Shown here: piece by piece, positions 1 through 63,533 of the stretch
Layout of the letters: each line of letters starts with the position of its first letter
How positions within the stretch are numbered: the first letter of the stretch is position 1
The notes under the pieces: model-generated
Told to the model about the DNA's origin: nothing
Database searches by the model: none
The model's input: only the letters and a program-made list of their open reading frames with translations
Position numbers and translations under genes: made by a program
Origin: an uncultured virus (IMG/VR IMGVR_UViG_3300009694_000018)
Lineage: Duplodnaviria; Heunggongvirae; Uroviricota; Caudoviricetes
Reading direction: 5' to 3' (one strand)
Virus record (IMG/VR): IMGVR_UViG_3300009694_000018
DNA: 64,000 nucleotides

Positions 1-676
1 CGATAATGATACACCGATAATAACGTTGGCCAAAAAGCAAAATAAACCATTAGATCAAATAACACATTTGAGTTGTTCTGATAAATCATTAACTAGTTTA
101 GAAGGAATTGAACATTTAACGAATTTAAGAGAATTGGATTGTTCTTATAATCAATTAACTAGTTTAGAAGGCATTGAACATTTAACGAATTTAGAATTAT
201 TAGATTGTTCTAATAATAGATTAACTAGTTTAGAAGGAATTGAACATTTAACGAATTTAAAAACATTATATTGTTCTAATAATCAATTAACTAGTTTAGA
301 AGGCATTGAACATTTAACAAATTTAAGAGAATTATATTGTCATTCTAATCAATTAACTAGTTTAGAAGGCATTGAACAATTAACGAATTTAAAAATATTA
401 CTTTGTAATACTAATCTATTAACTAGTTTAGAAGGCATTGAACATTTAACAAATTTAAGAGAATTATATTGTCATTCTAATCAATTAACTAGTTTAGAAG
501 GCATTGAACATTTAACTAATTTAAGAGAATTGGATTGTTCTTATAATCAATTAACTAGTTTAGAAGGAATTGAACATTTAAAGAATTTACAATATTTATA
601 TTGTAATAATAATAGATTTACTGATGAATATAAAAATTATTTAAAAACATTAAAAATAAATCATAAACAAATATAA
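1..676 (+). CDS. Leucine-rich repeat protein (8 x 22-aa LRR), 5' end cut by the window edge
   Basis: Repeats of LTSLEGIEHLTNLxxLxCxxNx. Frame is open from base 2 (DNDTPIITLAK), matching the sequence just after DPYGEEDW in the two paralogs, so the true start is upstream of the window. Confidence 0.9.
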   Translation, partial: DNDTPIITLAKKQNKPLDQITHLSCSDKSLTSLEGIEHLTNLRELDCSYNQLTSLEGIEHLTNLELLDCSNNRLTSLEGIEHLTNLKTLYCSNNQLTSLEGIEHLTNLRELYCHSNQLTSLEGIEQLTNLKILLCNTNLLTSLEGIEHLTNLRELYCHSNQLTSLEGIEHLTNLRELDCSYNQLTSLEGIEHLKNLQYLYCNNNRFTDEYKNYLKTLKINHKQI

Positions 677-2754
677 TGGCATTTGAAGTTAAAATAGTAA
701 ACATTAGTAGAAACGCAGATAATATAATTTTAACAGACAATTTAACTGTTGAAACGTTAAAAGTTAAATATAATTGGGTGCTTAACGCTAATGTTAAAAA
801 TTGTATCATAGGGCAAGATGATTATGGTATTGTATGGTATTCTGGGGAATGGATTTGTGGTGAATGGGAAGACGGAACATGGTATTCTGGAATATGGCAT
901 GATGGTATTTGGAAAAATGGTAGATGGTATTCCTATTTAATAGACGAATCAATGATAATAACACAAAGATTTGTCATTTTGGAAAAAGATAAAAAATATT
1001 CAGAATTTAGATCAGGGGAATGGTTAAATGGAGATTTTTACGACGGTATATTTGGTTATGACAGAGATGTTTCTAATAAATCTGTAAGTGACATAGAAAG
1101 CAAAAATTTTTCATCCGCTTATTGGAATTATGGTAGCTTTCATAATGGTACCTTTAAAAATTCTGTTTGGTTAGATGGTGTATTTTACGACGGTGAGATG
1201 TTAAATTCTTATTGGTTATATGGTAAATTTTATAACGGTGTATTTGATGATTATGAATGGTATGATGGATTATGGTTTGGGGGGGATTTTAAAAATGGCA
1301 AATGGTTTGATGGTAAGTTCAATCAATTAAAATATGATATTAAAAGTAGATTTGGAATTGGAAATTTTTGCATATGGTATCATGGCGATTTTTCAAGTGA
1401 TAAATATAGTCCTTTAAATCAACCGGAATTTCATTCTGGATTAAATATAGATGAGAGTGGAAATACTATACCTAGTATTTACAATAATCAGTCTATTTGG
1501 ATTAGTGGCAATTTCTATAATGGATTATGGTACGGTGGTCACTTCATAAGTGGAATATTCCACAATGGAAATTGGTATGGTGGAATACTAGGAAACACTA
1601 TAGGTTCAGAATATAGTTATAAATGTGTATGGAATAACGGACAGTGGTATAATGGTTTATGGATCAACGGCGTTTTTAAAAATGGACATTTTTATGGAGG
1701 TATGTGGATTGATGGAATTTTAGAAAGTGGTCATTTATCAACTAACATTAATGATCGAGACATTATTCCACTGTCGATGACAAATATATTTAATCCTCCT
1801 GTAGTTATTACGAATTCCGCAACTACAACATCAAAACATTATGAAATGATTGGTAACGGTGTTGTTATTAATGATGGAGGAGGAAAAATAATAAATAGAG
1901 GTATATGTTGGTTTCCATCAGGTATTACTATTGATCCTTTTTATGGTAATAGTTTTGCGATCACAGACGGTGGTACAATCGGGGATATTAACATTACAAT
2001 GAAAAATTTATTAAATACAACCACATATTATTACAGAGCGTTCGCTGAAAATTTGACCGGAATAACATACGGTGATGTTTTTAGCTTCACAACAACAGGA
2101 GAAACAGGACAATTACAGACAACTACATTACCCCCTCAATTGTTACCAACATCAAATAGTACGACATTTTTTGGAATGATAAATTCATCAGGCGAGTCTA
2201 TTACTATTTTAGACAGTGGATTTTACTATACTGGTCATACTTCGCCAGATATAACTTACGGTTCAGAATCAAATGGAACAACATCGATAGGCACATTCTT
2301 TAATACTATAACGACATTAGAACCATCTACCTTATATGATTATGTTGCTTATGTTACCGATTCAGAAGGAACTGTAATCGGAGAAAATGAACACATTATG
2401 ACACCTCCAATAGAACCGTCGTTATCGCCAACAGTAAGTACTGATGATGTGTTCTTAACAGGTTTTGATAGTGCTATAGCTTTTGGACATGTTATAGATA
2501 ATGGTAATGACACCATCATCGATGAGGGTATTTGTTGGAATACGTCGCCAAATCCAACCATTACTAATTCACATACACATTATTTAGATCTTCAATCTTA
2601 TTTTAACGGATATTTAACAGATTTAATAACGGGAACAACATATCATATTAGAGCATATGCAACAAATTCAATAAGTACATCTTATGGTAAAGATAAAACG
2701 ATAAGAACAAAATCATCACCGATGGTTGATATTTTAAGTATAAAAAATATGTAA
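676..2754 (+). CDS. Putative virion structural protein with (W/F)xxGx pentapeptide repeats and C-terminal FN3/Ig-like domains
   Basis: N-terminal WYSGEWICGEWEDGTWYSGIWHDG-type repeats; Thr/Ser-rich beta domains with TYYYRAFAEN and TYHIRAYATN motifs. Confidence 0.55.
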   Translation: MAFEVKIVNISRNADNIILTDNLTVETLKVKYNWVLNANVKNCIIGQDDYGIVWYSGEWICGEWEDGTWYSGIWHDGIWKNGRWYSYLIDESMIITQRFVILEKDKKYSEFRSGEWLNGDFYDGIFGYDRDVSNKSVSDIESKNFSSAYWNYGSFHNGTFKNSVWLDGVFYDGEMLNSYWLYGKFYNGVFDDYEWYDGLWFGGDFKNGKWFDGKFNQLKYDIKSRFGIGNFCIWYHGDFSSDKYSPLNQPEFHSGLNIDESGNTIPSIYNNQSIWISGNFYNGLWYGGHFISGIFHNGNWYGGILGNTIGSEYSYKCVWNNGQWYNGLWINGVFKNGHFYGGMWIDGILESGHLSTNINDRDIIPLSMTNIFNPPVVITNSATTTSKHYEMIGNGVVINDGGGKIINRGICWFPSGITIDPFYGNSFAITDGGTIGDINITMKNLLNTTTYYYRAFAENLTGITYGDVFSFTTTGETGQLQTTTLPPQLLPTSNSTTFFGMINSSGESITILDSGFYYTGHTSPDITYGSESNGTTSIGTFFNTITTLEPSTLYDYVAYVTDSEGTVIGENEHIMTPPIEPSLSPTVSTDDVFLTGFDSAIAFGHVIDNGNDTIIDEGICWNTSPNPTITNSHTHYLDLQSYFNGYLTDLITGTTYHIRAYATNSISTSYGKDKTIRTKSSPMVDILSIKNM

Positions 2755-2762
2755 TTAAAAAT

Positions 2763-4908: not shown

Positions 4909-4925
4909 AAAATACATAATAAAAG

Positions 4926-5957: not shown

Positions 5958-5974
5958 AAATAATTAAATTAGAT

Positions 5975-7030: not shown

Positions 7031-7046
7031 AATAAACTTATAATAA

Positions 7047-12024: not shown

Positions 12025-13842
12025 ATGGCAAGTTACGATAGATATAAAAATAATCAAGGAAACTCTTCAAATTTCGGATTATTCAATAGAATTTTAAGAG
12101 GACTCTCTACAATGTTCGGGGGTCTTGAATATAATGACATGAGAATAAGAAACGCCTACGCTGTTGGTGTCCATGAAGAAACTACTGATGTATTATATCA
12201 ACCGAATAGTTCAAATATGTATGATTTATTTACTAAAAAGACTATTGCTAGATTTTTAGACAAAAAATCAATAGCATATCTCGATAGAACATATTTAGAT
12301 AAAAGAAAAATATTAAGACAATACTCTATAAAAGACGAAATAAAAGATTTTATTACACAAATTGCTGATGAGTGTATTATATATGATGATAATAATAGAT
12401 TTTGTTTTGTTAAAGATCTTCCAGATACTTACGAACAAACTATAAAACAAAAATACCAAGAAGTATTCACGAAAATAATAAACACTTTCAATTTTAACGA
12501 AGGTCAAATCGCTTGGCAATATCTTAAAAATCTTTTAATAGACGGTTATATTTCATATGAAATTATCTATGACGATAAACAAAAAAATATAATAGATTTA
12601 GCTCCATTAGATCCTTTAACACTGATTGTTGCTACTGATCCGAATACAAATACAATGATCTGGATTCAACATCCAGATAATCCACAAATGCGTAAAATCT
12701 TATTAGATTCTCAAATTATTTATATATCATATTCAAATAATAATGAATATGGTGAAACTTCTTATGTTGAAAATTTAATTAGACCATATAACCAATTAAA
12801 AATGATTGAGCAAGCTCGTCTATTATATAATATAAATCAAGCATCAATTTATAAAAAATTTGTAATACCAGTCGGAGGATTAACTCGACAACAAGCCGAA
12901 CAACAAGTTTATGAATTAATGAGTGAATATCACGACGACGTACAATGGGACGAAAGAATGGGCACTGTTGCTATAAACGGTAGCACTAATATACCATTTA
13001 GTAAAGATTTCTGGTTTCCAGAAGGACAAGGAGGTACACCTAGCATAGATATATTACAACCGACTCAAGTAAATTTAAATGAAGATATAGTACTTCAATG
13101 GTTTTATAAAATATTGAAAAGAGCAAGTAAATTGCCTTTTCAAAGATTTGATGAAGATAATGGTGGTGGATCTTATGCATATGATTCCAGTGCAGCAATT
13201 ACGAGAGACGAAGTAAAATTTAAAAACTATATAAATAGAGTTAGAACAATATTTAAAGAAATCTTATTGAAACCGTTAAAAATTCAAATGATTATAGAAT
13301 TTCCGGAATTAAAAGACGATACTACTTTCAATGACAACATAAGATTAGAATTCATATCTGATACATTATTCGAAGAATGGAGACATTTGAAAAATATGAG
13401 TGAAAGAGCTGGTATCGCATCAACATTAATGTCGTCATTACAAAATTCAGAAGGAAAATCATTTTTAAGTATTGAATGGGTAATGCGTCATATTATGAAA
13501 TTTACAGATGCTGATATTGAAGAAAATAGAAAATATAAAATGCTAGAACTCAAATCCGGAGTCGGTGGTCCAGAAGGTGCTGGTCCAGAAGGTGGATTTG
13601 CCGGCGGATTTGGTGGAGGCGCTCAATTCGGTGGTGGTGGAGGAGCACAAATGGGGGGAGGAGCACAATTTGGTGGTGGATCACAAGCTGGTGGCGCTCA
13701 ATTTGGCGGTGGAGCACAAATAGGTGGAGAAGCGCAAGCCGGTGGTGGAGCACAAGCCGGTGCTCAATTTGGCGGTGGAACACAAGCGGGTGGAGGATCT
13801 CAAACACCATCACCACAAGCCGGACAAGGAGCCACATTCTAA
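12025..13842 (+). CDS. Portal protein, T4 gp20-like, with Gly/Gln-rich C-terminal tail
   Basis: IADECI, LIDG, SYVENLIRPYNQLKMIE, DFWFP...G.P.IDIL, ASKLPFQRF, ITRDEVKF..YI.R.R..F..IL..PL..Q motifs. Confidence 0.9.
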   Translation: MASYDRYKNNQGNSSNFGLFNRILRGLSTMFGGLEYNDMRIRNAYAVGVHEETTDVLYQPNSSNMYDLFTKKTIARFLDKKSIAYLDRTYLDKRKILRQYSIKDEIKDFITQIADECIIYDDNNRFCFVKDLPDTYEQTIKQKYQEVFTKIINTFNFNEGQIAWQYLKNLLIDGYISYEIIYDDKQKNIIDLAPLDPLTLIVATDPNTNTMIWIQHPDNPQMRKILLDSQIIYISYSNNNEYGETSYVENLIRPYNQLKMIEQARLLYNINQASIYKKFVIPVGGLTRQQAEQQVYELMSEYHDDVQWDERMGTVAINGSTNIPFSKDFWFPEGQGGTPSIDILQPTQVNLNEDIVLQWFYKILKRASKLPFQRFDEDNGGGSYAYDSSAAITRDEVKFKNYINRVRTIFKEILLKPLKIQMIIEFPELKDDTTFNDNIRLEFISDTLFEEWRHLKNMSERAGIASTLMSSLQNSEGKSFLSIEWVMRHIMKFTDADIEENRKYKMLELKSGVGGPEGAGPEGGFAGGFGGGAQFGGGGGAQMGGGAQFGGGSQAGGAQFGGGAQIGGEAQAGGGAQAGAQFGGGTQAGGGSQTPSPQAGQGATF

Positions 13843-13896
13843 TAAGAAACCATTATGTGCCTTTATCCAGTGAATCGTTCAGATAAAGAAATAAAC

Positions 13897-13927
13897 AAAA
13901 AAACCTATCTTTTTGATAGGTTTTTTT
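13897..13927. terminator. Bidirectional terminator between convergent genes
   Basis: AAAAAAACCTATC-TTTTT-GATAGGTTTTTTT. Confidence 0.8.
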
Positions 13928-13945
13928 AATTTAATATTAAAGATT

Positions 13946-15586
13946 TTATTTATTCCATATATATTTTAAATTTCCACTATCGTATATTCTAAATATATTT
14001 TTTTCTATCATTATATCGTGTTCAGATTTATTTGGATCTTCACCGTTTTTTACTAAATTATCTTTTCTAAAATTGAATCTATATTTTCTTATTCCGTCTA
14101 TAATATAAAAATAGTTTGGTCGTGTTTTATGAATTAGTTTGAATCCAAGATTTTCATATAAGTTACCTGTTGACCACGATCTATCGGCATAACTAATTAT
14201 TTCTATCGGATTATATTTTTTGATAAAATATTTAAATAATTTAGAAGCACTACCAATTACATTAGTGTTTAATTTATTGCAGAATCTAAGTATTTCATAT
14301 GTGTCATCTATTGATTTTTGACCCATCGATTTTCTTAAAGATCCAAATGTCATGATTGATACTAATTCATTTTGATTAAATAAACCAATTTTTATTTTAG
14401 AACCGACAAAACCTTGTAAATGATTTTTTTCTAAAAAAATTTTAACTAATTTATTATCGGTTATTTCTTTTATATCGCATTTTCTAGCCATTATTTTATT
14501 AGATTTTCCGATAAGATTTAAAATTCTAGATTTGACTATATCAGTTTTATATAACCAATCATCTTCGTATATTTGAATAAGTTTCATTTCGTTTTTTTCA
14601 CATAATTCAGTTTTATTAAAATGATAATAATTTTCTTTAAATATCTCGGAATGCCAATATAATCCATTAAATTCGAAAGCCAATTTCAATTCCGGTAAAT
14701 ATATATCTATTTCATAAGGATTTATTGTCTTTCTATCATTTAATGAAATTTCTTTATTATAATTTTCTTTTATGAATTCTTGTAATTGCACCTCAAATCC
14801 GCTATTTGAAGAAGAGCCTATAGGATTACAAATAGTGCAAATAGTTGTTTTATAGATTTTAAATCTTTGATGTAATATAATAAAAGGAATATCATATTGT
14901 TTTTTACACACATCACAAAATATTGTATATTTTTTATTTTTAAAATCTATATTTATGATATTTAACTTACAATATAATTTTTTTAATTTTTTAGTTTGTA
15001 ATTCGATGGATTTAGATGGATTATCCACACCGTATTTATTTACAAATGTGTCTTTGATACTATTTTTAAATTCTTCTGAACCAAAATAATAATCATTTTT
15101 GTATTTTTTTTTATTGGTGTTTTTTATTTTATCTAAAATAATATTGGACATGAAAGAATTATCTGATCCATATTTATCGTTAAACGTCGCTTTAATTTTT
15201 TCCTTAATATTATTATCTTTGAGAGGATTATCTACTCCATATTTTTTTATACAGGTTTTTTTTATTTTTTCTTTAGTTTCATCAAACAACATTTGATGTT
15301 CTACTCCATATTTTTCTAAACACGTTTTTTTGTTTTTTATGCAGCTACACTTCAAACATGTATATAAATTATATTTTTTAAAATTTTTATTATAATTTTT
15401 ATATGATAAAATTGTCTCTAATCCACAAACATCGCACCTGACATGTAATTTTTTATGACTTTGTTTTTGCAAATGTTCAATTGGAATAGTTATAATATCT
15501 TTTAAATTAACAATATAATCAAATTTCTTAAAATAATCAATATTTTGTTTGGTTATCTTTACATCTATATTTTTTTCTATTATCAT
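13946..15586 (-). CDS. Hef-like free-standing homing endonuclease (Zn ribbon, KYGVxN repeats, PD-(D/E)xK/Vsr-like nuclease, GNAT/Mom-like C-terminal domain)
   Basis: CDVCG; KYGVDNP repeats; EIDIYLPELKLAFEFNGLYWH; NHLQG...LRFC...ASKLFKYF...SYADRSWS. Confidence 0.75.
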   Translation of the reverse strand: MIIEKNIDVKITKQNIDYFKKFDYIVNLKDIITIPIEHLQKQSHKKLHVRCDVCGLETILSYKNYNKNFKKYNLYTCLKCSCIKNKKTCLEKYGVEHQMLFDETKEKIKKTCIKKYGVDNPLKDNNIKEKIKATFNDKYGSDNSFMSNIILDKIKNTNKKKYKNDYYFGSEEFKNSIKDTFVNKYGVDNPSKSIELQTKKLKKLYCKLNIINIDFKNKKYTIFCDVCKKQYDIPFIILHQRFKIYKTTICTICNPIGSSSNSGFEVQLQEFIKENYNKEISLNDRKTINPYEIDIYLPELKLAFEFNGLYWHSEIFKENYYHFNKTELCEKNEMKLIQIYEDDWLYKTDIVKSRILNLIGKSNKIMARKCDIKEITDNKLVKIFLEKNHLQGFVGSKIKIGLFNQNELVSIMTFGSLRKSMGQKSIDDTYEILRFCNKLNTNVIGSASKLFKYFIKKYNPIEIISYADRSWSTGNLYENLGFKLIHKTRPNYFYIIDGIRKYRFNFRKDNLVKNGEDPNKSEHDIMIEKNIFRIYDSGNLKYIWNK

Positions 15587-17214
15587 TTTTTATTCCATAA
15601 AAATTTTAAACTACCTGAATCATATATTCTAAGTATTCCTCTATCTAACATTATTTCATGTTCGGTTTTAGTCGAATCAAATCCTTCTGTTATCAATTTA
15701 TTTTTTCTAAAATTAAATCTATATTTTCTTGTTTTATTAATAATATAATAATAATTTGGTTTTGTTTTATGAATCAATTCAAATTCTAGTTTCTTATATA
15801 AATCACCATTGGACCAACTACGATCAGCATAACTAATTACTTCTATCGGATTATATTTTTCAATAAAATATTTAAAAAGTTTACTAGCTCCACCTATAAC
15901 GTTAATATTTATTTTATTACAAAATCTAAGCATTTCAAATGAACTAATTGAAGATTTTTGACCCATGGGAATTCTCAATGATCCAAATGTCATTAAAGAT
16001 ACGATTTCTTCGTTATAAAAAAGTCCGATTTTTATTTTAGAACCAACAAAACCTTGAATATGGTTTAATTCTAAAAAATCTTTAACCATATTATTATCAG
16101 TTATTTCTTTTATTTCACATTTTCTAGCATATATTTTATTTGATTTGCCTAGAATATTTAATATTCTAGATTTAACTATGTTTTGTTTATATAACCAATC
16201 GTCTTCGTAAATATGTATTAAATGAATTCCTAATTTTTCACATTCTTCGGTTTTATTTAAATGATAATTTGCATCTTTGTAAAATTCAGAATGCCAATAA
16301 AGTCCATTAAATTCGAAAGCAATTTTCAAATTTGGTAAATAAATGTCTATTTCTTTTGGTGGTATTATTTTAGCGTTAGTAATGACATCAAATTGATAGT
16401 TTTTTTTTATAAAATCTATTATGTTTTTTTCTTCACTCGATGTTGAAAAATAACCAATTGGATTACATATCGAACACAATTCAACTTTTAATTCTCTTCT
16501 TGTTTGATATGCTCTTTTATTTAATGAAAAATTTTGATTGCATTTTTTACAATAAAAAATATAATCATCTCCAACATAATCAATAATTCCATATTTATTT
16601 TTTAAGAAATTTAAAACTTTGTTTTTAATTTTTTGTTTAAAATCAATTGATTGTGATATATATTTTACTCCATTATTTTCAAAACATGTTTTTTCTTTTT
16701 TGATTTTTATATTTTTATTTTTAGATACATTATCAACACCATATTTATCCATTATGGTTTTTTTAGATTTATTTTTTATAATATCATTTGATAACCCCCA
16801 ATCGCATCCCCAATTTATTCTATTAGTTTTTATTTTTTTTTCTTTTATTTCAATACTCTTAGACACATTATCTACTCCATATTTCTCTAAGTTTTTTTCT
16901 TTTATTTTGTTCTTAACATTATCTATTTGAAAAACATTTTTTACTCCATATTTTTCTAATAAATTCTTTTCATTTTTACATTTTTTACAATAATATTTGA
17001 TTAAATAATCATTCTTCACTATAGAATTAAATTTGACTTTCCTTTCTATTCCACAAATATCACACCTTATATTAATTAACGCATGACTCCCGTTACTTAA
17101 ATCCTTAATAAACACATCAATTGTTTCATTGACTCTCCCAATATAACCTAGCTTTTTATATCTACTAATATTCGATGAATTCAATGTTATACTTACTTTA
17201 TCGTCTATTATCAT
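15583..17214 (-). CDS. Hef-like homing endonuclease paralog
   Basis: Same architecture and a near-identical C-terminal half to 13946..15586. Confidence 0.75.
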   Translation of the reverse strand: MIIDDKVSITLNSSNISRYKKLGYIGRVNETIDVFIKDLSNGSHALINIRCDICGIERKVKFNSIVKNDYLIKYYCKKCKNEKNLLEKYGVKNVFQIDNVKNKIKEKNLEKYGVDNVSKSIEIKEKKIKTNRINWGCDWGLSNDIIKNKSKKTIMDKYGVDNVSKNKNIKIKKEKTCFENNGVKYISQSIDFKQKIKNKVLNFLKNKYGIIDYVGDDYIFYCKKCNQNFSLNKRAYQTRRELKVELCSICNPIGYFSTSSEEKNIIDFIKKNYQFDVITNAKIIPPKEIDIYLPNLKIAFEFNGLYWHSEFYKDANYHLNKTEECEKLGIHLIHIYEDDWLYKQNIVKSRILNILGKSNKIYARKCEIKEITDNNMVKDFLELNHIQGFVGSKIKIGLFYNEEIVSLMTFGSLRIPMGQKSSISSFEMLRFCNKININVIGGASKLFKYFIEKYNPIEVISYADRSWSNGDLYKKLEFELIHKTKPNYYYIINKTRKYRFNFRKNKLITEGFDSTKTEHEIMLDRGILRIYDSGSLKFLWNKK

Positions 17215-17310
17215 GATAAGATTTATTAATATATATAATTAAATGGATGTTATGTTTTGTCTAAATCACCATTAAATACATCAAAATAGAAAAATATCAC
17301 ATTTTTAATG

Positions 17311-17323
17311 TAATATATAAATA
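17311..17323 (+). promoter_or_regulatory. Late promoter upstream of the prohead protease
   Basis: TAATATATAAATA contains both the local AATATATA motif and the exact T4 late promoter TATAAATA (17316-17323). Confidence 0.7.
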
Positions 17324-17340
17324 AAAAAATAAAAGCAAAC

Positions 17341-19767
17341 ATGAAGAATGTTCTGATTATTGAAAATTCAACCAATGGATTGCAAAAAGTCAACGAATCT
17401 GTTACCCCAACAGGGAAACGTCAATACATTTTAGGTGGTATATTCACTGAATTTGGTGTGAAGAACAGAAACGATAGGATATATAGTGCTGATAGATTTT
17501 TGCCGCACTTGGATGAATTATTAGAAAGGAAAAAAACACTGGGTGTCGTTTATGGCGAGTTCGATCATCCTGATGTTTTTGATACAAGTTTATCTAGGGT
17601 ATCTCACATTGTAGAAAAAGCTTTTTATGTAAAAGATAAAAATAGAGTTGATGGTGAAATTAAATTACTAAATACTCGTTGGGGGAAAGAAGCCCAAGCT
17701 TTAATAGATGATGATTGCCCTATTTTTGTTTCATCTAGGGCCGCTGGAATAACAGAATCAAATGGCGAAGTAACAATTAAGAAATTGTTTACTTATGACG
17801 CTGTTGCAGATCCTGGTTTTAGCTCCGCAAAAATGGAACTTCGCACATTAAATGAATCATTAGGATTTAACGAAAGTGCTAACTTTAGGATATATGATAT
17901 ATCCGACGAGTCAAAAATAAACGATTTGTTCAATATGGATAATAATGAATTTGTAACAAAAGAACAGATGGAAAAGTACTCTAATTATTTAACTGGAGAA
18001 ATTGCTAAAACAAAAAATGAAATTAGTGAAACCATTAAAAATGGTGATTTTGATCCAAAAAAATTAAATGATTTGTATGAAAAGTACGAAACCTTCAATG
18101 AGGGATTTAAGAAGATAGCTTCTTATCTCGATTACTTAGCCGAAACGATGCAAGTATTGGTTAAAGAAAATAAAAAAATTAAAAAAACAAACGAAAAACT
18201 AGAAGAAGATTTAGAAAGAACTACAGAAAGAACTAAAAAAATTATCGAACACAATGATTATCTGGCAGAAAATCTAGAAAAAGCAATTGGATATACTGAA
18301 TATGTTGCTGAATCAGTTGATAAATCAATTGATTATTCCAATTACATTGCAGAAACACTGGATAAATCAATAGACTTCTCAGAATATATCGCTGAAAACG
18401 TTGATAATACAATTAAATATTCAGAATATATCGCTGAAAACGTTGATAAATCAATTGATTATTCCGAATATATAGCTGAAAATCTAGATAAAAATATAGC
18501 TTATTCAGAATATGTTGCTGAAAGTTTAGATAAAAATATAGCTTATTCAGAATATGTTGCTGAACATGTTGATAATAATATTAAATATGCAGAATATATC
18601 GCCGAGCATGTTGATAATGGAATCAAATATTCAGAATATATTGGTGAACAACTCGATAATAGTATTAAATATGCTGAATATATTGCTGAAAATTTGACGG
18701 ATGCAATTGCTTATGAAAATTACATCGCTGAATCTTTAGATAAAAATATAGAATATAATAAATACATCGCTGAAAAATTAAATTCTAAAGGAAATTTGAT
18801 AAGAGAATCTATTGAAACTCCTGAAGAAAAAATGGGTAATTTTAAAACCGGTTCTGTCGCAAAGTATTACGATGATGACGAAGATATGAACAACGTTCAA
18901 CCAATCGATGACGACGATGAAACTGGAGTTCAAAATCAAGGTCAGACTCAAACGCAAGGTCAAGCTCAAGTTCAAACGCAAGGTCAAGCTCAAACGCAAG
19001 GTCAAGATGAAGAGGAAGAAGATGTTGATATTGAAGGAGTAAATGCCGAAGAAATTCAAGATGAAGAAGATAAAACAGAACTAGTACCTGGTCAAGTTGT
19101 TAAAATTGACGATGATAAAACGGGTGAAATTTTAGCAATTAATGCTGACAATGGAATTGCTGTAGTTAAATTATCAGATACCGGTGAAGTTCAAGAAATT
19201 CAAGAAAATAGATTATCAATCATAGGTGATAAAATTTATGATTCAGAAAATACATTAAAGAAATTAGTGTTAAAGCAAATCAATGAATCCAAAAAACGCA
19301 AGGCTTCAGAAGATAAAGAACCTCATTTCTTACTTTTCTTAACTGAAAAGAAAAAGGCAGCATACTATAACCTTTCTCAATCAGATAAAGAAAAAGTAAT
19401 CGTTGCAATGAACGAAAGTAATGGTTATACAACAGAAAATGAAGTTTTAACAATAATGGCTAAAGCTCTAACTTCAGCCGTAAGAAGCTTTAATGACAAA
19501 TTGATCGACAATATCCCAAACGATCTTAGACCAATTTGGGAAAGTTTACGTCCAGAAGTTCAAGGAAGTATTATAAGTAGTGCACAATTTTATACAAACC
19601 TTACTGAGGATAAAATGGAAAGTTTCTGGAATAGTAGAAACCTCCACGAATATGCTAAAAAAAGTTCAGGTAAAGTTACACTGTTAACAGAAAAAAATAA
19701 TAGTTTTGATAATACAAAGTTATCTGAAAATCAATTAGAAGCATATTTAAAAAGATTACAAAGATAA
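17341..19767 (+). CDS. Prohead protease (T4 gp21-like) fused to a long scaffold/core-like region
   Basis: KNRNDRIY, GEFDHP, VSSRAAG and YDAVADPG protease motifs in the first ~170 aa; directly upstream of the capsid gene. Confidence 0.85.
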   Translation: MKNVLIIENSTNGLQKVNESVTPTGKRQYILGGIFTEFGVKNRNDRIYSADRFLPHLDELLERKKTLGVVYGEFDHPDVFDTSLSRVSHIVEKAFYVKDKNRVDGEIKLLNTRWGKEAQALIDDDCPIFVSSRAAGITESNGEVTIKKLFTYDAVADPGFSSAKMELRTLNESLGFNESANFRIYDISDESKINDLFNMDNNEFVTKEQMEKYSNYLTGEIAKTKNEISETIKNGDFDPKKLNDLYEKYETFNEGFKKIASYLDYLAETMQVLVKENKKIKKTNEKLEEDLERTTERTKKIIEHNDYLAENLEKAIGYTEYVAESVDKSIDYSNYIAETLDKSIDFSEYIAENVDNTIKYSEYIAENVDKSIDYSEYIAENLDKNIAYSEYVAESLDKNIAYSEYVAEHVDNNIKYAEYIAEHVDNGIKYSEYIGEQLDNSIKYAEYIAENLTDAIAYENYIAESLDKNIEYNKYIAEKLNSKGNLIRESIETPEEKMGNFKTGSVAKYYDDDEDMNNVQPIDDDDETGVQNQGQTQTQGQAQVQTQGQAQTQGQDEEEEDVDIEGVNAEEIQDEEDKTELVPGQVVKIDDDKTGEILAINADNGIAVVKLSDTGEVQEIQENRLSIIGDKIYDSENTLKKLVLKQINESKKRKASEDKEPHFLLFLTEKKKAAYYNLSQSDKEKVIVAMNESNGYTTENEVLTIMAKALTSAVRSFNDKLIDNIPNDLRPIWESLRPEVQGSIISSAQFYTNLTEDKMESFWNSRNLHEYAKKSSGKVTLLTEKNNSFDNTKLSENQLEAYLKRLQR
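18250..18780 (+). repeat. 13 tandem 42-bp / 14-aa coding repeats (YSEYIAENxDKxIx)
   Basis: Counted directly in the translation, from HNDYLAEN to YNKYIAEKL. Confidence 0.9.
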
Positions 19768-19800
19768 ATTTTATATGTTTGATAGTCGATTTAGAAAAAA

Positions 19801-19824
19801 ATGACTTTTTAAATCAAATATATA
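19801..19824 (+). promoter_or_regulatory. Bipartite putative late promoter (ATGA-N12-AATATATA) upstream of the major capsid gene
   Basis: Same spacing at 8330, 8636, 61882, 32160(-) and 52168(-). Confidence 0.6.
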
Positions 19825-19845
19825 ACTAAAAAAAAAATTAAAAAA

Positions 19846-21603
19846 ATGAATTTTATAGTAGACGGTGTGAAAGCACAAAAAAAATGGGCTCCTATCTTAG
19901 ACGCTCTTAAAGTTGTTGATGATGATAAAAGAGCATGGATGTCCGAATATGCAGAAATGCATCAAATGAATGAAAATGTTGGTTATGCAACATTGAATCA
20001 AAATGGTATGGGCAAAGTTCTAGCTCCCGTTATCTCTACAGTTCCTGGTGCCACTTGGCAAGGTGATGGAGTAATCGGTAGTGGTGACGTTGCACAAAAT
20101 CTTCTCCCTGTCGCAATGAAGATCGCAGCTCAAACGATTGGTTTGGATTTGGTTGGTGTTAAACCAACAGCTTCTCCAAGAATCGAACTCTTATTTGTTG
20201 ATTTCAAATATGATAACGCTTATGCTGACGGTATTCGCGAAACAGCTGACGCTAATCAAAGACCTTTGGTTTTTAAAGTTAAAGGTAATGATACAGCAGA
20301 AGATTTACTTTTAAAACAAGCTCTTCAATTACAACTTTCTTTATTGAGTATTCAAGAAAGAGTTGGTGGATTATCCAAGAGAACTTGGGTTCATATTGGA
20401 GCTGGTGGAGCAGTAGCTACAATGACAAATGGACCAGCAGTTGGTTCTTATACCGATTGGTTGGAATTTTTAGGATTTTCCAGAATTGATGGTTATCCAA
20501 TGTTTAGATGCTACAGACAAGCTGGTTTCTCAGTTGGTTCTTTGGTACCACAAGATTCTACAGGGGCTGCAAATTACCCATGGCAAACTGGAATGAATAC
20601 ATTCCCACAAACTGGCGCTATTACTACCTACTTATCAACTAATGATTTTGGTACTATAAGCGGTACAACTACTACAGGTTTAACAGCTGGTACATGGACA
20701 ATTGAATTGATTTCACTATTGGAAGATCACCTACCTGGATTTTCAGCTGGTTGGACATCTAATATGGAAAATGGCTGGGAAGGTCCTATGTCAAGATTCC
20801 AAGATGAAAAAACTTATCCTGGTGTTATTGGTCCTGATGTATTCACAAAATCAGTACAAGTAGGAGATGTTGAAATTTCATCAACATTGAAAAGAACTCA
20901 AATTGAAGATATCAAAGCCGCAACCGGTATGGATATTGTTCAAAAACTCGAAGGAGTTTTAATTAACGAACTTACCCAAGTTATTTCTAAAGAAATCGTC
21001 GGTAAAGTTAGAAACTTAGCTCTCAAGAATAGAACATCTTATACTGCTCCAAAAATGGCAGATGGTGTAACATCAAAATTCGACCTCAATGTTGATACAT
21101 ACGTAGCAGCTTTGAATACTGGAATGGGTGAAACAACTCACTCAATCCAAAGAAAACTTATTGCCAAAATCAATAACGCTTCTAACTTCATCGCTACTGA
21201 TGGTAGAATTGGACCAGCTCAATATTTAGTAACAAACGGTAACTTAGCTTCCGTTATTCAAGATATCGCTGGTTATACTATTAATCCAGTTAACGCTGGC
21301 AAATTAAATACCAACGGTCAACTTTATCCAATGGGTAATGTTGGTAATATCGCAATCTACGTTGATCCATACATGAGATGGGATGATAACTATATCTATT
21401 TAGGTAGAAAAAATAGTGTTGATCAACCAGGTCTTCTCTTTATCCCTTATTTAATGGCACAATCAATTTCCTTGATTTCCGAAGCGACGTGGGCACCAAG
21501 AATGTTGATCAGAAGCAGATATGCTGTTGCTGATATTGGATTCTTCCCAGAAAAACAATTCATGGCTATTAAGGTTACTGATTCTGAAGGTGTTCTTATC
21601 TAA
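19846..21603 (+). CDS. Major capsid protein, T4 gp23-like
   Basis: KKWAPIL N-terminus, AQTIGLDLVGVKP, IAIYVDPY, GLLFIPY, TWAPRMLIRSRYA; biased codon use; follows gp21 and precedes a terminator. Confidence 0.9.
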   Translation: MNFIVDGVKAQKKWAPILDALKVVDDDKRAWMSEYAEMHQMNENVGYATLNQNGMGKVLAPVISTVPGATWQGDGVIGSGDVAQNLLPVAMKIAAQTIGLDLVGVKPTASPRIELLFVDFKYDNAYADGIRETADANQRPLVFKVKGNDTAEDLLLKQALQLQLSLLSIQERVGGLSKRTWVHIGAGGAVATMTNGPAVGSYTDWLEFLGFSRIDGYPMFRCYRQAGFSVGSLVPQDSTGAANYPWQTGMNTFPQTGAITTYLSTNDFGTISGTTTTGLTAGTWTIELISLLEDHLPGFSAGWTSNMENGWEGPMSRFQDEKTYPGVIGPDVFTKSVQVGDVEISSTLKRTQIEDIKAATGMDIVQKLEGVLINELTQVISKEIVGKVRNLALKNRTSYTAPKMADGVTSKFDLNVDTYVAALNTGMGETTHSIQRKLIAKINNASNFIATDGRIGPAQYLVTNGNLASVIQDIAGYTINPVNAGKLNTNGQLYPMGNVGNIAIYVDPYMRWDDNYIYLGRKNSVDQPGLLFIPYLMAQSISLISEATWAPRMLIRSRYAVADIGFFPEKQFMAIKVTDSEGVLI

Positions 21604-36214: not shown

Positions 36215-37089
36215 ATTATTATATTTTTTATTTTTGTTTTTAATTTTAAATAATTTTTATATTCATCAGTAAATCTATTATTATTACAATATAAATATTG
36301 TAAATTCTTTAAATGTTCAATTCCATCTAAATTAGTTAATTGATTACGTGAACAATCTAATAATTCTAAATTCGTTAAATGTTCAATGCCTTCTAAACTA
36401 GTTAATGAATTATTCGAACAATGTAAATATCTTAAATTAGTTAAATGTTCAATTCCATCTAAATTAGTTAATTGATTATTATGACAATATAATTCTCTTA
36501 AATTAGTTAAATGTTCAATTCCTTCCAAACTAGTTAATTGATTAGAATGACAATATAATATCTCTAAATTCGTTAAATGTTCAATTCCTTCTAAATTAGT
36601 TAATTGATTAGAATGACAATATAATTCTCTTAAATTCGTTAAATGTTCAATTCCTTCTAAATTAGTTAATTGATTACGTGAACAATCTAATAATTCTAAA
36701 TTAGTTAAATGTTCAATGCCTTCTAAATTAGTTAATGAATTATAAGAACAATTTAATGTTTCTAAATTAGTTAAATGTTCAATGCCTTCTAAACTAGTTA
36801 ATGAATTATAATAACAATATAAAGACATTATTTGATCTAATGGTTTATTTTGTTCTTTAGCTAACTGTATTATCGGTGTATCATTATCATCGTTCCAATC
36901 TTCCTCGCCGTATGGATCAATATCCGATCTATTTAATTGTTCAAAGTTTTTTCCTTTCTTACCAATATCTTCGCCTCTCCTAGCTCTTTTAACTATATCG
37001 GATTTTTTTTCTTTTGTTAATCCTTCAGATGGTTTATTCTTTTCATTTAAAGTAAAATCATCAAAATTCATTAGATTATTCATATACAT
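36211..37089 (-). CDS. LRR protein (8 x 22-aa) with chimeric N-terminus and DPYGEEDW motif
   Basis: Same LRR consensus and caps as 1..676 and 62844..63533. Confidence 0.9.
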   Translation of the reverse strand: MYMNNLMNFDDFTLNEKNKPSEGLTKEKKSDIVKRARRGEDIGKKGKNFEQLNRSDIDPYGEEDWNDDNDTPIIQLAKEQNKPLDQIMSLYCYYNSLTSLEGIEHLTNLETLNCSYNSLTNLEGIEHLTNLELLDCSRNQLTNLEGIEHLTNLRELYCHSNQLTNLEGIEHLTNLEILYCHSNQLTSLEGIEHLTNLRELYCHNNQLTNLDGIEHLTNLRYLHCSNNSLTSLEGIEHLTNLELLDCSRNQLTNLDGIEHLKNLQYLYCNNNRFTDEYKNYLKLKTKIKNIII

Positions 37090-37157
37090 TTTGATTATTT
37101 TTTTTGGAATTCTAACTTTAATATATATATTAAAATAAAAAAATTCTTTTTTTATAT

Positions 37158-39710
37158 ATGAATTATCTATTAAGTAAAAAATTCGACGGCACCTTTACAA
37201 TGAATTTTATTGGCACTCAAACACTCACTCCAACGAATAATACTATGTATCTTAAACCAACAGCAGTAATAACTGGGATAAAAAAAATCACTTCTTATTC
37301 TCAAATTGTTAGAGGAACAATAGATTCATCACAATATTTGTCAGTATTCTTCAAATATCAAAATAAATATGACAATCAACAATCTGAATGTCAAGATTGT
37401 TGGAGTGAATTGATGCCTATTTCAGCAATAACTGGAATTACATGTATACCAAATAGACCCTTCGATTTAGAATTATATTATTATAGAATTGATGATAAAA
37501 TAGATGATCTTCCACCAACAAATATAATTATAGGTGATGATGATTATACACCAGCCATAATAATATCAGGTGATTATGAATTCAATTGGACGGACGGACC
37601 ATTCACTTTAACTGAAACTATTAATGAAGTAGTTCTCATTCCAAAAGACATATATAAAATATTTTCTATTTCTGATTTTCAAGTTATAACAGATGATATT
37701 GATAATTTAGAAATATATTATAGAGTTACTCAAGATAACGGTAGAACTTATTCTAAATGGGAACCTCTCAATAAAGCAAATATATCAACGTTTAGATTCA
37801 ATAATCTTAGATTCGCTAGAGTGGAATATAAAATAAAAACAATATATCCACCAAACCAGCCGACAAACGTATATGATGTCATTTTAATTGGAGATTTTCA
37901 AAATGTTTCTGCAAATTCTTTAAAAACAAACAGATACGGAATAAGACAAGACTGTATTGTTCCGTATATAAATCATTTCACTGGATCAACAGATACATGT
38001 GGTTGGAATATAAGCACGCAATCAGGTTCGACTTATAGTATGTCACCAGGCAACGGACAAATAACGAATGTTATGACTCCTTATGATTTAAATATGAATT
38101 TTTGGACACAGGGGCTAAGTTGTTATTCATCTAATCCAAACAATTCTAATGGAACAATTCCAGCTGGGGGAACTACCGCATCAATAACTGCTCAAAATCA
38201 AAATGCTCAAATAGGCGGTTCAACATACTGGAAACCTTATGATATGACACAAATAGTTAGTTTTGCTAATATGTTAGCCAATCAAGTGAATGATGTTTTT
38301 GGTTGGGAAGTAGATTATCATTTAACTGATCCGGATTCAAACGGAATAGACTTCATATTGCACGAATATCAATTATATAATATAATTGATATGAAAAAAG
38401 TTAAAATTTTAGTACCTGATAATAAATTTCCAGATAATACAGTAAAATTCAATCAATTCAATTTGGATTTATTTGATACGTTTGAAATTCATATACTCAA
38501 AGACGAATTTAAAAGAAAATTTGGAATCGATAAAAGACCTAGTGAAAACGATATATTATACATATGTCCTATAAACAGACTATTTTATGTTAAACATTCT
38601 CAAGTTTATAGGGAAGTTATGAACGCTGGTTATTATTATAAAGTAATACTTGAGAAATACGAACAAAAAGCGAATATCAGAAATCTTCACGAAGAATCAA
38701 AAGCCTTATTAGATACACTTACTAAAAACACTACAATGCAAGAACTTATGGGGATTGAAACCACACAGGAAGAAGAAAAAATTGCTAATATTGAACAATT
38801 CAAACCTTTCACTTTTGATCCGATGAGATATGTTGTTAATAATAAAGTAATTAGAGTTCAAGAAAATATATCTAATGATAATTTCGACTTTTCAAAATCA
38901 CATTACGATTTCAAAGATGTTATTGGAAAAACCGCAGTTGTTTATAAAAAAACAGATAATGTTTTCACCGAATCAACAAACAGATCTTTCATATGTTGGT
39001 TTAATTTTAATAATTCGTGGAACCCCGATAAACCAAATATAAACTCATGGAAAACTTATGATATAGATAAAAAAACAAATTTCTGGTTCTTTGATAATTT
39101 TGATACTGTTACTAATAAAGGATACAGATCTTGGTTTTATAACAACGATATTAATTTTCAATTAAACGATCAATATTATAAATTAAGTGGATTTTTAAGT
39201 GCAACAGACAAATCTAGAATCGGTGTTAATTTATTAACTAATATTTGGTACGGCCTCGTTATAAACCTAGATCAACGTCAAAAAACAGTAGAATTGAAAT
39301 TGTATCAAAGAGATAATAATTACGATATAGTTTTCTTTAATTCTAATACTTATCAATTACAAACCATATCTTGGTTAGATTCGACAGGATATACATATTT
39401 AATAAGTTCTGGATATAAACCAGTTAATAATGTTGAACTAAATACATCAATATCAACATTTAAAATAATTAAAGAAAATAAATACGAATCAACATACGTT
39501 CAATCCTTTGATCACGAAATGGATTTAACTATTAAAGGATCTAATATAAAATACACTAATTTGAGAATATTGACAGATGTTATTCCAACGGAAGAAATAT
39601 CAAATATTCTAAATCAAAATATAATATATAATGCTGAAAAATTATTATTGGCTGATAACGCCGATAAAAATATTTATACAGAAAATTTTGTAAATAAAAA
39701 TTGGGTGTGA
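37158..39710 (+). CDS. Virion structural protein containing a T4 gp14 (neck)-like domain
   Basis: VFGWEVDYH...D.IL.EY...FGIDKRPSENDILYICPINRLFYV resembles gp14 RPxEGDLIY.P..LF; palindromic TATATATA promoter at ~37120. Confidence 0.5.
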   Translation: MNYLLSKKFDGTFTMNFIGTQTLTPTNNTMYLKPTAVITGIKKITSYSQIVRGTIDSSQYLSVFFKYQNKYDNQQSECQDCWSELMPISAITGITCIPNRPFDLELYYYRIDDKIDDLPPTNIIIGDDDYTPAIIISGDYEFNWTDGPFTLTETINEVVLIPKDIYKIFSISDFQVITDDIDNLEIYYRVTQDNGRTYSKWEPLNKANISTFRFNNLRFARVEYKIKTIYPPNQPTNVYDVILIGDFQNVSANSLKTNRYGIRQDCIVPYINHFTGSTDTCGWNISTQSGSTYSMSPGNGQITNVMTPYDLNMNFWTQGLSCYSSNPNNSNGTIPAGGTTASITAQNQNAQIGGSTYWKPYDMTQIVSFANMLANQVNDVFGWEVDYHLTDPDSNGIDFILHEYQLYNIIDMKKVKILVPDNKFPDNTVKFNQFNLDLFDTFEIHILKDEFKRKFGIDKRPSENDILYICPINRLFYVKHSQVYREVMNAGYYYKVILEKYEQKANIRNLHEESKALLDTLTKNTTMQELMGIETTQEEEKIANIEQFKPFTFDPMRYVVNNKVIRVQENISNDNFDFSKSHYDFKDVIGKTAVVYKKTDNVFTESTNRSFICWFNFNNSWNPDKPNINSWKTYDIDKKTNFWFFDNFDTVTNKGYRSWFYNNDINFQLNDQYYKLSGFLSATDKSRIGVNLLTNIWYGLVINLDQRQKTVELKLYQRDNNYDIVFFNSNTYQLQTISWLDSTGYTYLISSGYKPVNNVELNTSISTFKIIKENKYESTYVQSFDHEMDLTIKGSNIKYTNLRILTDVIPTEEISNILNQNIIYNAEKLLLADNADKNIYTENFVNKNWV

Positions 39711-40417: not shown

Positions 40418-40418
40418 C

Positions 40419-40985: not shown

Positions 40986-40988
40986 TAA

Positions 40989-61554: not shown

Positions 61555-61557
61555 TAT

Positions 61558-62501: not shown

Positions 62502-62840
62502 ATGAAAGAAAATTTGAATCATTTAGTTCTATTCGATAAATATATTTCCGAAAAAAAGGATATTATAAAGGAAATTGGTAAAAACGTGAGGAAAGGACTT
62601 GGATTTTTGACATATGAAGAAAAAATAGAAAAAGGACTTGGGATCGTTAAAAAACATAAAGTTAAAAAGGATACCTACGAAATATTATTGAAACAAGATC
62701 CGGAAAGAGCAGAAAAATATTTAATTTTTTGGGCTGAATTACCTGATGGATTTCCGCATTGGAATAGTGTGACCAGAGAATGGGAAGATTCTGGCGAATA
62801 TTATGATCAAACAGGAATACTAGGGACAAGAAAATATTAA
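62502..62840 (+). CDS. Hypothetical protein with CTS-like N-terminus
   Basis: LVLFDKYISE. Confidence 0.6.
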   Translation: MKENLNHLVLFDKYISEKKDIIKEIGKNVRKGLGFLTYEEKIEKGLGIVKKHKVKKDTYEILLKQDPERAEKYLIFWAELPDGFPHWNSVTREWEDSGEYYDQTGILGTRKY

Positions 62841-62843
62841 AAG

Positions 62844-63533
62844 ATGATCAAAAATTTTAGAATATTTGAACAATTAAGTAGACAAGACATTGATCCTTAT
62901 GGTGAAGAAGATTGGGACAACGATAACGATACTCCGATAATACGGCTAGCCAAAAAGCAAAATATACAATTAGATCAAATAATGTCTTTAGATTGTTCTT
63001 ATAAAGGATTAACTAGTTTAGAAGGCATTGAACAATTAATTAATTTAAGATATTTATATTGTTCATTTAATAGATTAACTAGTTTAGAGGGAATTGAACA
63101 TTTAACGAATTTAAGAGAATTATATTGTCATTTTAATTCATTAACTAATTTAGAAGGCATTGAACATTTAACAAATTTAAAAATATTATATTGTAATTAT
63201 AATTTACTAACTAGTTTAAAAGAAATTGAACATTTAACGAATTTAAAAATATTATATTGTAATTATAATTTACTAACTAGTTTAAAAGAAATCGAATATT
63301 TAACTAATTTAAGAGGATTATATTGTTCTAATAATAGATTGACTAGTTTAGAAGGAATTGAGCATTTAACGGATTTGAGAGAATTATATTGTCATTCTAA
63401 TCAATTAACTAATTTAGATGGAATTGAACATTTAAAGAATTTAGAAACATTATATTGTTTCAATAATAGATTTACTGATGAATATAAAAATTATTTAGGA
63501 TCAAAGAAAAACATGATGAAGATAATATGGTGA
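62844..63533 (+). CDS. LRR protein (7 x 22-aa) with MIKNFRIFE and DPYGEEDW leader
   Basis: Paralog of the other two LRR genes. Confidence 0.9.
   Translation: MIKNFRIFEQLSRQDIDPYGEEDWDNDNDTPIIRLAKKQNIQLDQIMSLDCSYKGLTSLEGIEQLINLRYLYCSFNRLTSLEGIEHLTNLRELYCHFNSLTNLEGIEHLTNLKILYCNYNLLTSLKEIEHLTNLKILYCNYNLLTSLKEIEYLTNLRGLYCSNNRLTSLEGIEHLTDLRELYCHSNQLTNLDGIEHLKNLETLYCFNNRFTDEYKNYLGSKKNMMKIIW

What the first reader, a model, noticed from the sequence alone, without database searches (positions are those of the whole stretch)
1..63533. Three dispersed LRR genes built from a shared, shuffled pool of 22-aa modules
Seen: genes at 1..676, 36211..37089(-) and 62844..63533 share caps (DNDTPII.LAK.QN..LDQI; NNRFTDEYKNYL) and a nearly invariant 66-bp repeat backbone (LTSLEGIEHLTNL). 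Variation is concentrated in the xxLxCxxNx stretch. The same variable modules recur in different orders within and between genes: RELYCHSNQ in all three, ELLDCS(N/R)N and QYLYCNNNR in two, KIL(L/Y)CN(T/Y)NL in two, RELDCSYNQ twice in one. Repeat numbers are 8, 8 and 7. Established: that stretch forms the concave ligand-binding face of LRR solenoids. Inference: a recombination-diversified binder repertoire, conceptually like lamprey VLRs. Its CTS-like and DPYGEEDW leader suggests virion delivery, for example to neutralise host defence proteins.
Basis: partly seen in the sequence, partly recalled or inferred. Interest (0 to 1): 0.8.

Follow-up and report, generated by a model that had tools for sequence, protein, structure and literature searches.

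The report
Shuffled LRR genes hinge giant-phage genome
A giant uncultured phage carries at least 18 scattered copies of a small leucine-rich-repeat gene whose 66-base units are mixed between copies and which sit at most of the points where its gene order differs from a relative's, likely because ordinary recombination between the copies keeps renewing a predicted library of protein binders that may be packed into the phage head.

Summary
The window is part of a T4-like huge phage (capsid 85.5% identical to the 735-kb phage LR756501). Other assemblies of it hold 18 loci of this LRR subfamily and two more subfamilies. Of 126 repeats, 105 have their nearest neighbour only in other genes; 118 pairs share an identical binding face, against about 5 by chance. 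Variation lies on the predicted concave strand (pN/pS 2.0; backbone 0.23). Subfamilies with different backbones share no faces.

New here: 10 of 13 gene-order breakpoints against LR756501, which lacks these genes, fall on an LRR gene, window genes B and C included. The best reading is inherited crossover and conversion between dispersed copies, probably by the phage's UvsX-like recombinase. No silent cassettes, reverse transcriptase or site-specific recombinase were found, so it is not VLR- or DGR-like. Head packaging and anti-defence are inferred from a T4-like leader; no target is known. The DPYGEEDW tag is not LRR-specific. The 89-kb 'circular genome' is probably a false circle through two LRR copies. 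The scan noted this family before on another genome (e1-5467352).

The parts
2..676 (+). LRR gene A (250 aa in full; 5' end lies outside the window), 8 repeats at 89-616; last gene of a tandem G-H-A cluster in the 243-kb assembly
   Evidence: Pfam LRR_4 6.7e-51
1..121 (+). 121-nt terminal repeat of the 88,970-nt contig; the circle closes through a chimera of genes D2 and H, which share 386 identical bases
36211..37089 (-). LRR gene B (292 aa), 8 repeats at 36274-36801; sits on a gene-order breakpoint against LR756501 (128.4 kb | 93.4 kb)
36934..37089 (-). N-terminal extension of B, matching part of a separate 230-aa gene of LR756501 (residues 16-50, 77% identity): a gene fusion at the leader
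37124..37131 (-). AATATATA motif 42 nt before B; the same motif lies about 29 nt before portal, protease and capsid genes (candidate late promoter, inferred)
62844..63533 (+). LRR gene C (229 aa), 7 repeats at 63009-63470; predicted LRR solenoid; sits on a breakpoint against LR756501 (163.7 kb | 686.5 kb), reciprocal to gene M
62844..62873 (+). CTS-like leader MIKNFRIFEQ (T4 IPII/IPIII read MKTYQEFIAE); shorter spacing to the Glu than in T4
62892..62915 (+). DPYGEEDW tag in gene C (also in B at about 36895-36918); shared with many unrelated ORFs
12025..21603 (+). context: T4-type portal (12025-13842), head maturation protease (17341-19767) and major capsid protein (19846-21603), the machinery that a CTS would need
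35834..36214 (-). 3' neighbour of B; its orthologue in LR756501 directly follows the orthologue of the 5' neighbour of LRR gene E2
37158..39710 (+). 5' neighbour of B; orthologue at 127,162 in LR756501, 34 kb from the orthologue of B's 3' neighbour

Best explanation
These are members of a large family of small leucine-rich-repeat genes in one giant phage whose near-identical 66-base repeats are mixed between copies, likely by the phage's ordinary homologous recombination, yielding a predicted set of protein binders that would be packed in the head and injected to block host defences. Shown: the family, the mixing, the position of the variable residues in the model, and the coincidence of the genes with gene-order breakpoints. 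Inferred step 1: the 39-nt conserved backbone recurring every 66 nt gives many in-register pairing sites, so a UvsX-like recombinase makes conversions (single repeats or blocks copied), unequal crossovers (4 to 13 repeats per gene, tandem clusters, relics) and crossovers between distant copies (caps uncoupled, flanking genome blocks swapped). Changes are inherited and slow, not programmed each cycle. Inferred step 2: selection keeps the core and backbone and favours new residues at six concave-face positions. Inferred step 3, the weakest: a T4-like leader sends the proteins into the prohead, the T4-type protease trims them, and they act on injection as T4 internal protein I does. Confidence by step: recombinational mixing about 0.9, binder under diversifying selection about 0.65, head-packaged anti-defence about 0.4.
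For: Family size: 17 genes with 126 repeats plus one frameshifted copy. 105 of 126 nearest neighbours lie only in other genes; 27 cross-gene pairs are identical over 66 nt. RELYCHSNQ occurs 8 times with 7 different left and 7 different right neighbours. N-cap and C-cap distances are uncorrelated (15 genes, Mantel r -0.06, p 0.77). Subfamilies I and II share 0 faces in 5922 pairs, as homology-limited exchange predicts. 10 of 13 breakpoints against LR756501 hold an LRR gene; weighted null mean 1.5, max 7 in 100,000; a control multi-copy family has 1 of 14. The flank-swapped pairs share only 28-72 exact bases. UvsX-like gene beside a helicase, 2.9e-51. Face pN/pS 0.417/0.205 in subfamily I and 0.344/0.062 in II; neutral simulation gave about 1.0-1.4 at a similar pN. 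Model pLDDT 88.7 with strands on positions 15-17; best folds SDS22, Leptospira LRRs, internalins, VLR-based repebodies. 66 of 101 homologues carry the full K-x-[FY]-x-x-[FY]-x-x-E leader, against 0.3% of internal windows; none has a hydrophobic run of 10. CTS-like genes have the capsid-gene upstream motif in 13 of 17 cases against 76 of 245.
Against: No target, expression or virion data. The window genes carry a shortened leader that misses T4's spacing, and loose versions lead 70 of 472 ORFs, among them an enzyme. Only a few LRR genes have the upstream motif directly, and in subfamily II it lies inside the previous gene. In subfamily I two of three backbone four-fold sites are as diverse (0.59, 0.60) as face positions (mean 0.51), so relaxed constraint is not excluded there; the simulation used a star tree. 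The breakpoint test rests on one relative and was inconclusive in a second phage (2 of 11 breakpoints, p 0.056). 6 of 16 LRR-bearing intervals are plain insertions. Some shared blocks (E/E2, D2/H, P/Q/R/S) may be recent duplications or lie at contig ends. Repeats cluster slightly by gene (nearest neighbour in the same gene 13% against 5.6%). Little change is seen between samples.
Confidence: 0.5

Rival explanations
1. Same recombining binder family, but made during infection and acting in the cytoplasm without being packaged, for example against host defence proteins or co-infecting phages.
For: No signal peptide or membrane run; LRRs serve as immunity proteins in polymorphic toxin systems (PMC3482391, passages); the leader is common in this genome.
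Against: The leader is close to T4's in most homologues and is found on three different LRR scaffolds; leader genes share the capsid-gene upstream motif.
Confidence: 0.2
2. Largely selfish or neutral repeats: the genes spread and mix because repeats recombine easily, and the face varies because it is unconstrained.
For: Absent from the close 735-kb relative; relics exist; backbone four-fold sites near saturation in subfamily I.
Against: Core pN/pS 0.02 and nearly all copies in frame; face pN 0.344 against pS 0.062 in subfamily II, above simulated omega 4; parallel expansions on three scaffolds.
Confidence: 0.12
3. Binders displayed on the outside of the virion (adhesins or receptor finders), docked through the DPYGEEDW tag.
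For: Closest solved relatives include surface internalins and Leptospira LRRs; Goslar has virion fibre proteins with predicted LRR/beta-helix domains (10.64898/2026.04.21.720040, passages).
Against: No fibre or anchoring domain; the leader resembles an internal-protein signal; the tag also ends many small unrelated proteins.
Confidence: 0.1
4. A programmed diversifier like lamprey VLR assembly or a diversity-generating retroelement.
For: Patchwork repeats joined through short shared sequence resemble VLR products (PMC3308329, passages); third bases of some face codons barely vary.
Against: No silent cassettes; no reverse transcriptase in 0 of 4 records, no tyrosine or serine recombinase in 0 of 3; adenines in backbone codons are invariant; genes identical between assemblies. 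About a quarter of the genome was not searched.
Confidence: 0.04
5. Assembly artefact: collapsed repeats create both the shared modules and the apparent rearrangements.
For: Contigs break inside LRR genes; three chimeric genes (own D, P0001, P0013) cross over within the longest exact match of their pairs, 386, 81 and 88 nt.
Against: A, B, C identical in three assemblies; B and C share at most 81 and 58 exact bases with any paralogue; flank-swapped pairs 28-72; shared modules carry private synonymous marks; gene G is bridged in one contig of another study.
Confidence: 0.04

Closest known systems
SDS22-like 22-residue LRRs: human SDS22/PPP1R7 (6mky, 6obn), Listeria internalins (InlA, InlB; InlJ 3bz5), Leptospira LIC10831 (4u06)
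   Same: Fold and repeat length; phmmer 5.7e-48 to SDS22 and 1.2e-51 to LIC10831; TM-score about 0.75; an invariant Cys in every repeat recalls the InlJ cysteine ladder (title of a reference seen).
   Different: Phage-encoded, own caps, no signal peptide or anchor, repeats about 83% identical in DNA and mixed across genes.
LRR repertoires of giant eukaryotic viruses (CroV and Megavirus FNIP/FGxxFN; entomopoxvirus, Klosneuvirus and Bodo saltans virus LRRs)
   Same: Large viral paralogue families with variable face residues, already compared to VLRs (PMC9525666, passages); top viral fold hits.
   Different: Here the host is bacterial (predicted), the repeat class differs, there is no F-box or kinase fusion, a CTS-like leader is present, and the genes mark genome breakpoints.
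T4 internal proteins IPI-III with capsid-targeting sequence
   Same: Leader likeness and T4-type portal, protease and capsid; T-even internal proteins are a diverse injected anti-defence set sharing only the CTS (PMC3012670, passages).
   Different: T4's proteins are unrelated small folds at fixed loci; here one repeat scaffold is diversified at many loci; packaging is untested.
Lamprey variable lymphocyte receptors
   Same: LRR solenoid, variable concave face, patchwork through short homology.
   Different: No incomplete recipient gene, no silent donor cassettes, no sign of per-generation assembly.
Repeat-driven rearrangement and gene accordions in large DNA viruses; plant NBS-LRR clusters evolving by conversion and unequal crossover
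   Same: Repeats as rearrangement sites and expanding anti-defence families (PMC13359090, passages); plant papers seen as search listing only.
   Different: The rearranging repeat is itself a protein-coding binder gene.

Membership tests
SDS22-like LRR solenoid | 22-residue repeats with LxxLxLxxNxL segment and parallel beta-strands | tested here: met
   spacing 22 throughout; LRR_4 above cut-off; model and fold search; Cys replaces the third Leu in 126 of 126 repeats
Listeria internalins | signal peptide and surface anchor or inter-repeat domain | tested here: not met
   0 of 101 homologues have a hydrophobic run of 10; proteins end about 20 residues after the last repeat
VLR-type programmed assembly | incomplete recipient gene flanked by non-coding donor cassettes | tested here: not met
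   all subfamily-I-like DNA in about 406 kb lies in LRR genes or one frameshifted copy; about 130 kb or more not examined
VLR-type programmed assembly | new receptor assembled per cell, so high diversity within a population | tested here: inconclusive
   only contigs available; assemblies identical; G unchanged in order, a few differences near the ends of F and G in 2 of 4 runs
VLR-type programmed assembly | AID/APOBEC-like deaminase | not tested
   no search run
Diversity-generating retroelement | reverse transcriptase | tested here: not met
   0 of 4 records (G001 contains the window region); none among 99 own-contig ORFs scanned
Diversity-generating retroelement | one template repeat and adenine-specific change | tested here: not met
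   adenines in backbone codons are invariant and non-A positions vary; no silent template
T4 CTS internal proteins | N-terminal MKTYQEFIAE-like decapeptide | tested here: inconclusive
   full motif in 66 of 101 homologues and 4 of 21 LRR ORFs of this phage; short form in 11 of 21, window gene C included
T4 CTS internal proteins | T4-type prohead protease in the genome | tested here: met
   phrog_207, 1.5e-26
T4 CTS internal proteins | encapsidation, cleavage after Glu, injection | not testable with these tools
   needs virions
Site-specific shufflon/invertible cassette | tyrosine or serine recombinase and fixed crossover sites | tested here: not met
   0 of 3 records for each family; linkage decays all along the unit

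The most novel reading that the evidence does not exclude
Huge Mahaphage-type phages carry an inherited, antibody-like arsenal: dozens of head-packaged LRR binders on several scaffolds, each subfamily a private recombination pool that yields new anti-defence specificities and, through the same crossovers, reorders the whole genome at the LRR genes.
Probability: 0.35. Interest if true: 0.85.

Novelty: new variant of a known kind. Interest (0 to 1): 0.62.

Why it matters
If right, it shows a bacteriophage using a eukaryote-style recombining LRR repertoire, a strategy described for giant eukaryotic viruses and plant and lamprey immunity but not found for phages in the searches run here. It ties binder diversification to whole-genome rearrangement through one set of sequences. 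Pull-downs with the paralogues could find unknown host defence proteins. A 22-residue unit with a fixed backbone and six variable positions is a natural repebody-like scaffold. In practice these genes break assemblies and can produce false 'complete' circular genomes: this 89-kb record is classed 100% complete with direct terminal repeats.

Tried and rejected
Reverse transcriptase, integrase and resolvase searches: none. Tail sheath search: 0 of 5, uninformative. PADLOC: 0 of 3 proteins. PHROGs gives only unnamed families for the LRR. tRNA scan of the window: 0. Backbone pattern in GTDB genomes: 0. Cluster look-up: 9 of 10 sequences not in the collection. A loose TATATA test showed no link with the leader (p 0.38); only the tighter AATATATA, chosen after viewing the capsid genes, did, so that result is post hoc. 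Laying contigs on gene B at 80% likeness could not resolve repeat order, because paralogues pile up; word shares of 0.80-0.94 are not used as evidence. A first synteny count without filtering single displaced genes gave 12 of 80 'breakpoints' with LRR genes; anchors lacking two collinear neighbours were then dropped (42 of 282) and one duplicate-anchor break removed. Replication in a second phage was inconclusive. A simple reciprocal inversion between B and E2 alone was rejected. Chimeras P0001, P0013 and own gene D cannot be told from misjoins and were left out of all counts. No complex prediction was run, as there is no candidate partner. Literature: ten searches found no description of this family; two huge-phage preprints and PMC7162821 have 0 main-text mentions of leucine-rich repeats. 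Supplements were not read and may list LRR annotations; most subscription journals are not covered.
Full report
Observation. The window begins an 88,970-nt contig that holds a fourth LRR gene at 88076-88771 and the start of A at 88773, joined to the window's start by a 121-nt terminal repeat.

The phage. The window encodes a T4-type portal, head protease and capsid protein. The capsid is 85.5% identical to that of LR756501, 735 kb. PMC7162821 (passages) places the genomes over 634 kb in the Mahaphage clade and predicts Bacteroidetes hosts; I did not test the host. The same phage lies in a 243-kb record (G001) and in 64-, 120- and 163-kb records, with A, B and C base-identical. G002 (163 kb) lacks the capsid gene, and its end continues into G001's start in the relative's gene order (235.2 kb to 235.7 kb), so I treat them as one genome (inferred). 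In G001 the own gene D is two genes, D2 and H, 88 kb apart and sharing 386 identical bases; own D is the front of one and the back of the other. The 'complete' circle is thus a misjoin or an excision product. Runs from 10 studies hold the stretch around B, mostly wastewater, sludge, bioreactor and groundwater; B's flanks differ by 0-3 bases in the four laid.

Family size. Subfamily I (backbone LTSLEGIEHLTNL) has 18 loci: 12 on G001, 5 on G002 (one frameshifted, one partial) and one on a 130-kb contig assigned to this phage only by shared repeats. Subfamily II (LTSLEGIEKLVNL) is a tandem of four genes and a relic; subfamily III has 20-residue repeats, four intact genes and two broken. Related phages have their own backbones and clusters; LR756500 has five matches of a 23-residue type, with a similar leader on the three I read. 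Of the 120 best homologues, 101 are Cys-type LRRs, and 88 of these carry the DP-tag.

Mixing. For 126 repeats of 17 genes (own D and the frameshifted copy left out) there are 73 different faces, 25 in two or more genes. Identical-face pairs number 118 (109 across genes), against 5.1 +- 2.7 by independent shuffling. 105 repeats have nearest neighbours only in other genes. There is a small within-gene excess (13% against 5.6%), as tandem duplication would give. In a tree no gene forms a clade (96 changes; minimum 16; shuffled 100.6; 66 columns, so many forks are unresolved). Only 10 adjacent-pair orders recur, all in copied blocks; common modules have many different neighbours. N- and C-caps are uncoupled. 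Subfamilies I and II share no face in 5922 pairs, and no set shares one with another phage. Linkage inside the unit is low (r2 0.01-0.06), so the 'modules' are themselves mosaics.

Structure and selection. The model of C is an LRR solenoid (pLDDT 88.7; first 20 residues low) with strands at unit positions 15-17, like SDS22, Leptospira LRRs, internalins and repebodies. The variable codons 14, 15, 17, 19, 20 and 22 lie on and just after that strand; that this face binds ligands is established knowledge, recalled. pN/pS is 2.0 on the face, 0.37 on other surface positions and 0.02 in the core; subfamily II gives 0.344/0.062. An AT-biased neutral simulation gave about 1.0-1.4 at a similar pN, so both exceed it, II clearly. 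Against this, two of three backbone four-fold sites in subfamily I are near saturation, and repeats are not independent.

Genome hinges. LR756501 has no close LRR match (best 3e-7; 0 frames with two LRR motifs). At gene A its neighbours are adjacent, without the LRR cluster. Over G001 and G002, 238 intervals lie between collinear anchors; 13 are breakpoints and 10 of these hold an LRR gene, against 6 of the other 225. A null weighted by gene number gives 1.5 (max 7 in 100,000), and a control multi-copy family falls on a breakpoint 1 time in 14. In four cases the LRR gene or pair is the only called gene at the junction. Read by eye, the 5' flank of one gene and the 3' flank of another are neighbours in the relative, on the same strand: C with M as a reciprocal pair, and E2, B, E/D2, O, N and J as one cycle, with small local extras (a short inversion near M, a 78-aa gene moved, two genes missing). 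Crossovers between dispersed copies give this pattern. So would misjoins, but these pairs share only 28-72 exact bases, the own contig's overlap suggests a word size near 121 (inferred), and the junctions at B, C, J, M and N recur in two or three assemblies. The direction of change rests on one relative; insertion of LRR genes at pre-existing breaks is not excluded; a second phage was too diverged to test.

Mechanism. A UvsX-like gene lies beside a helicase. No reverse transcriptase, integrase or resolvase was found, nor silent cassettes, which VLR loci require (PMC3308329, passages). In contigs of four studies (2016-2025) all bins of the F-G-H-A cluster are covered, and G's repeats are bridged without change in one 379-nt contig. 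Two runs show 5 and 7 differences on the contig joining F's end to G's start, one with a 5-base gap in F's cap; since only one substitution was listed, the rest probably lie in the LRR ends (inferred). Order in F, H and A could not be read. This fits slow inherited turnover.

Delivery. T4 IPII and IPIII begin MKTYQEFIAE; T-even internal proteins are diverse injected inhibitors sharing only this signal (PMC3012670, passages). The full motif is in 66 of 101 homologues and in subfamily II; genes A and C have a shorter form. Genes with the leader more often have the AATATATA motif that precedes portal, protease and capsid (13 of 17 against 76 of 245; post hoc). DPYGEEDW occurs in 46 of 451 non-LRR ORFs, mostly at ends or module borders, and says nothing on delivery by itself. 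Packaging, target and anti-defence role are inferences.

Comparison. It works like the LRR repertoires of giant eukaryotic viruses (PMC9525666, passages) and, in inheritance, like plant LRR clusters (listing only). It fails membership tests for VLR, DGR, shufflon and internalin. Ten literature searches found no description in phages; other papers read as passages: PMC3482391, the Goslar preprint, 10.1101/2024.06.14.598830, PMC13359090; two preprints returned no hits. No supplements were seen. The scan reported the same family and a similar reading on another genome; its summary does not mention the breakpoint result.

Verdict. A real, larger-than-reported, recombining LRR family that also marks the phage's rearrangement points. 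New variant of a known kind; interest 0.62.

Noticed in passing
G000 whole contig; window 1-121 and contig 88076-88970: Record classed as 100% complete with direct terminal repeats is an 88.8-kb piece of a phage of 400 kb or more, closed through two LRR genes sharing 386 nt; it still holds portal, capsid and terminase genes.
   Followed up: yes
window 28068-29081, 39701-41288, 43948-44289, 49155-49712; contig 68116-70137: DPYGEEDW tag in 46 of 451 non-LRR ORFs, six times in one 673-aa protein; in L200 several tagged modules are fused ahead of an LRR, so the tag may also mark fusion junctions.
   Followed up: partly
window about 29 nt before 12025, 17341 and 19846: AATATATA motif before structural genes, peaking 20-40 nt upstream genome-wide: candidate late promoter of this clade.
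   Followed up: partly
window 13946-17214, 21758-25585, 32157-33926; contig 83259-84596: Six DUF7487 genes, three with a Mom-like domain hit, inserted among core genes and absent at the same sites in LR756501; probably mobile.
   Followed up: no
window 33941-35458; contig 84633-87902: DNA polymerase B is in pieces about 50 kb apart; the later piece has an intein start interrupted by a zinc-finger gene.
   Followed up: no
window 63577-64700: An 83-aa piece of a gene that is 281 aa in LR756501 follows gene C; the DNA after it reads like the start of a tRNA at the window edge, then an endonuclease-like frame.
   Followed up: no
window 3913-8006: Four related 319-351 aa ORFs in tandem, the first with a full CTS-like leader, conserved in LR756501, no Pfam match.
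   Followed up: no
L120, L122 (LR756500): A separate family of 23-residue LRR genes with MKYIKEYEEF-type leaders in a 462-kb phage: a parallel expansion on another scaffold.
   Followed up: partly
L029:2828-4273 (gene J): 481-aa fusion of a 320-aa front part to a whole LRR gene including its leader; lies on a breakpoint.
   Followed up: partly
window 59616-60353: Small TnpB/Cas12f-like gene.
   Followed up: no
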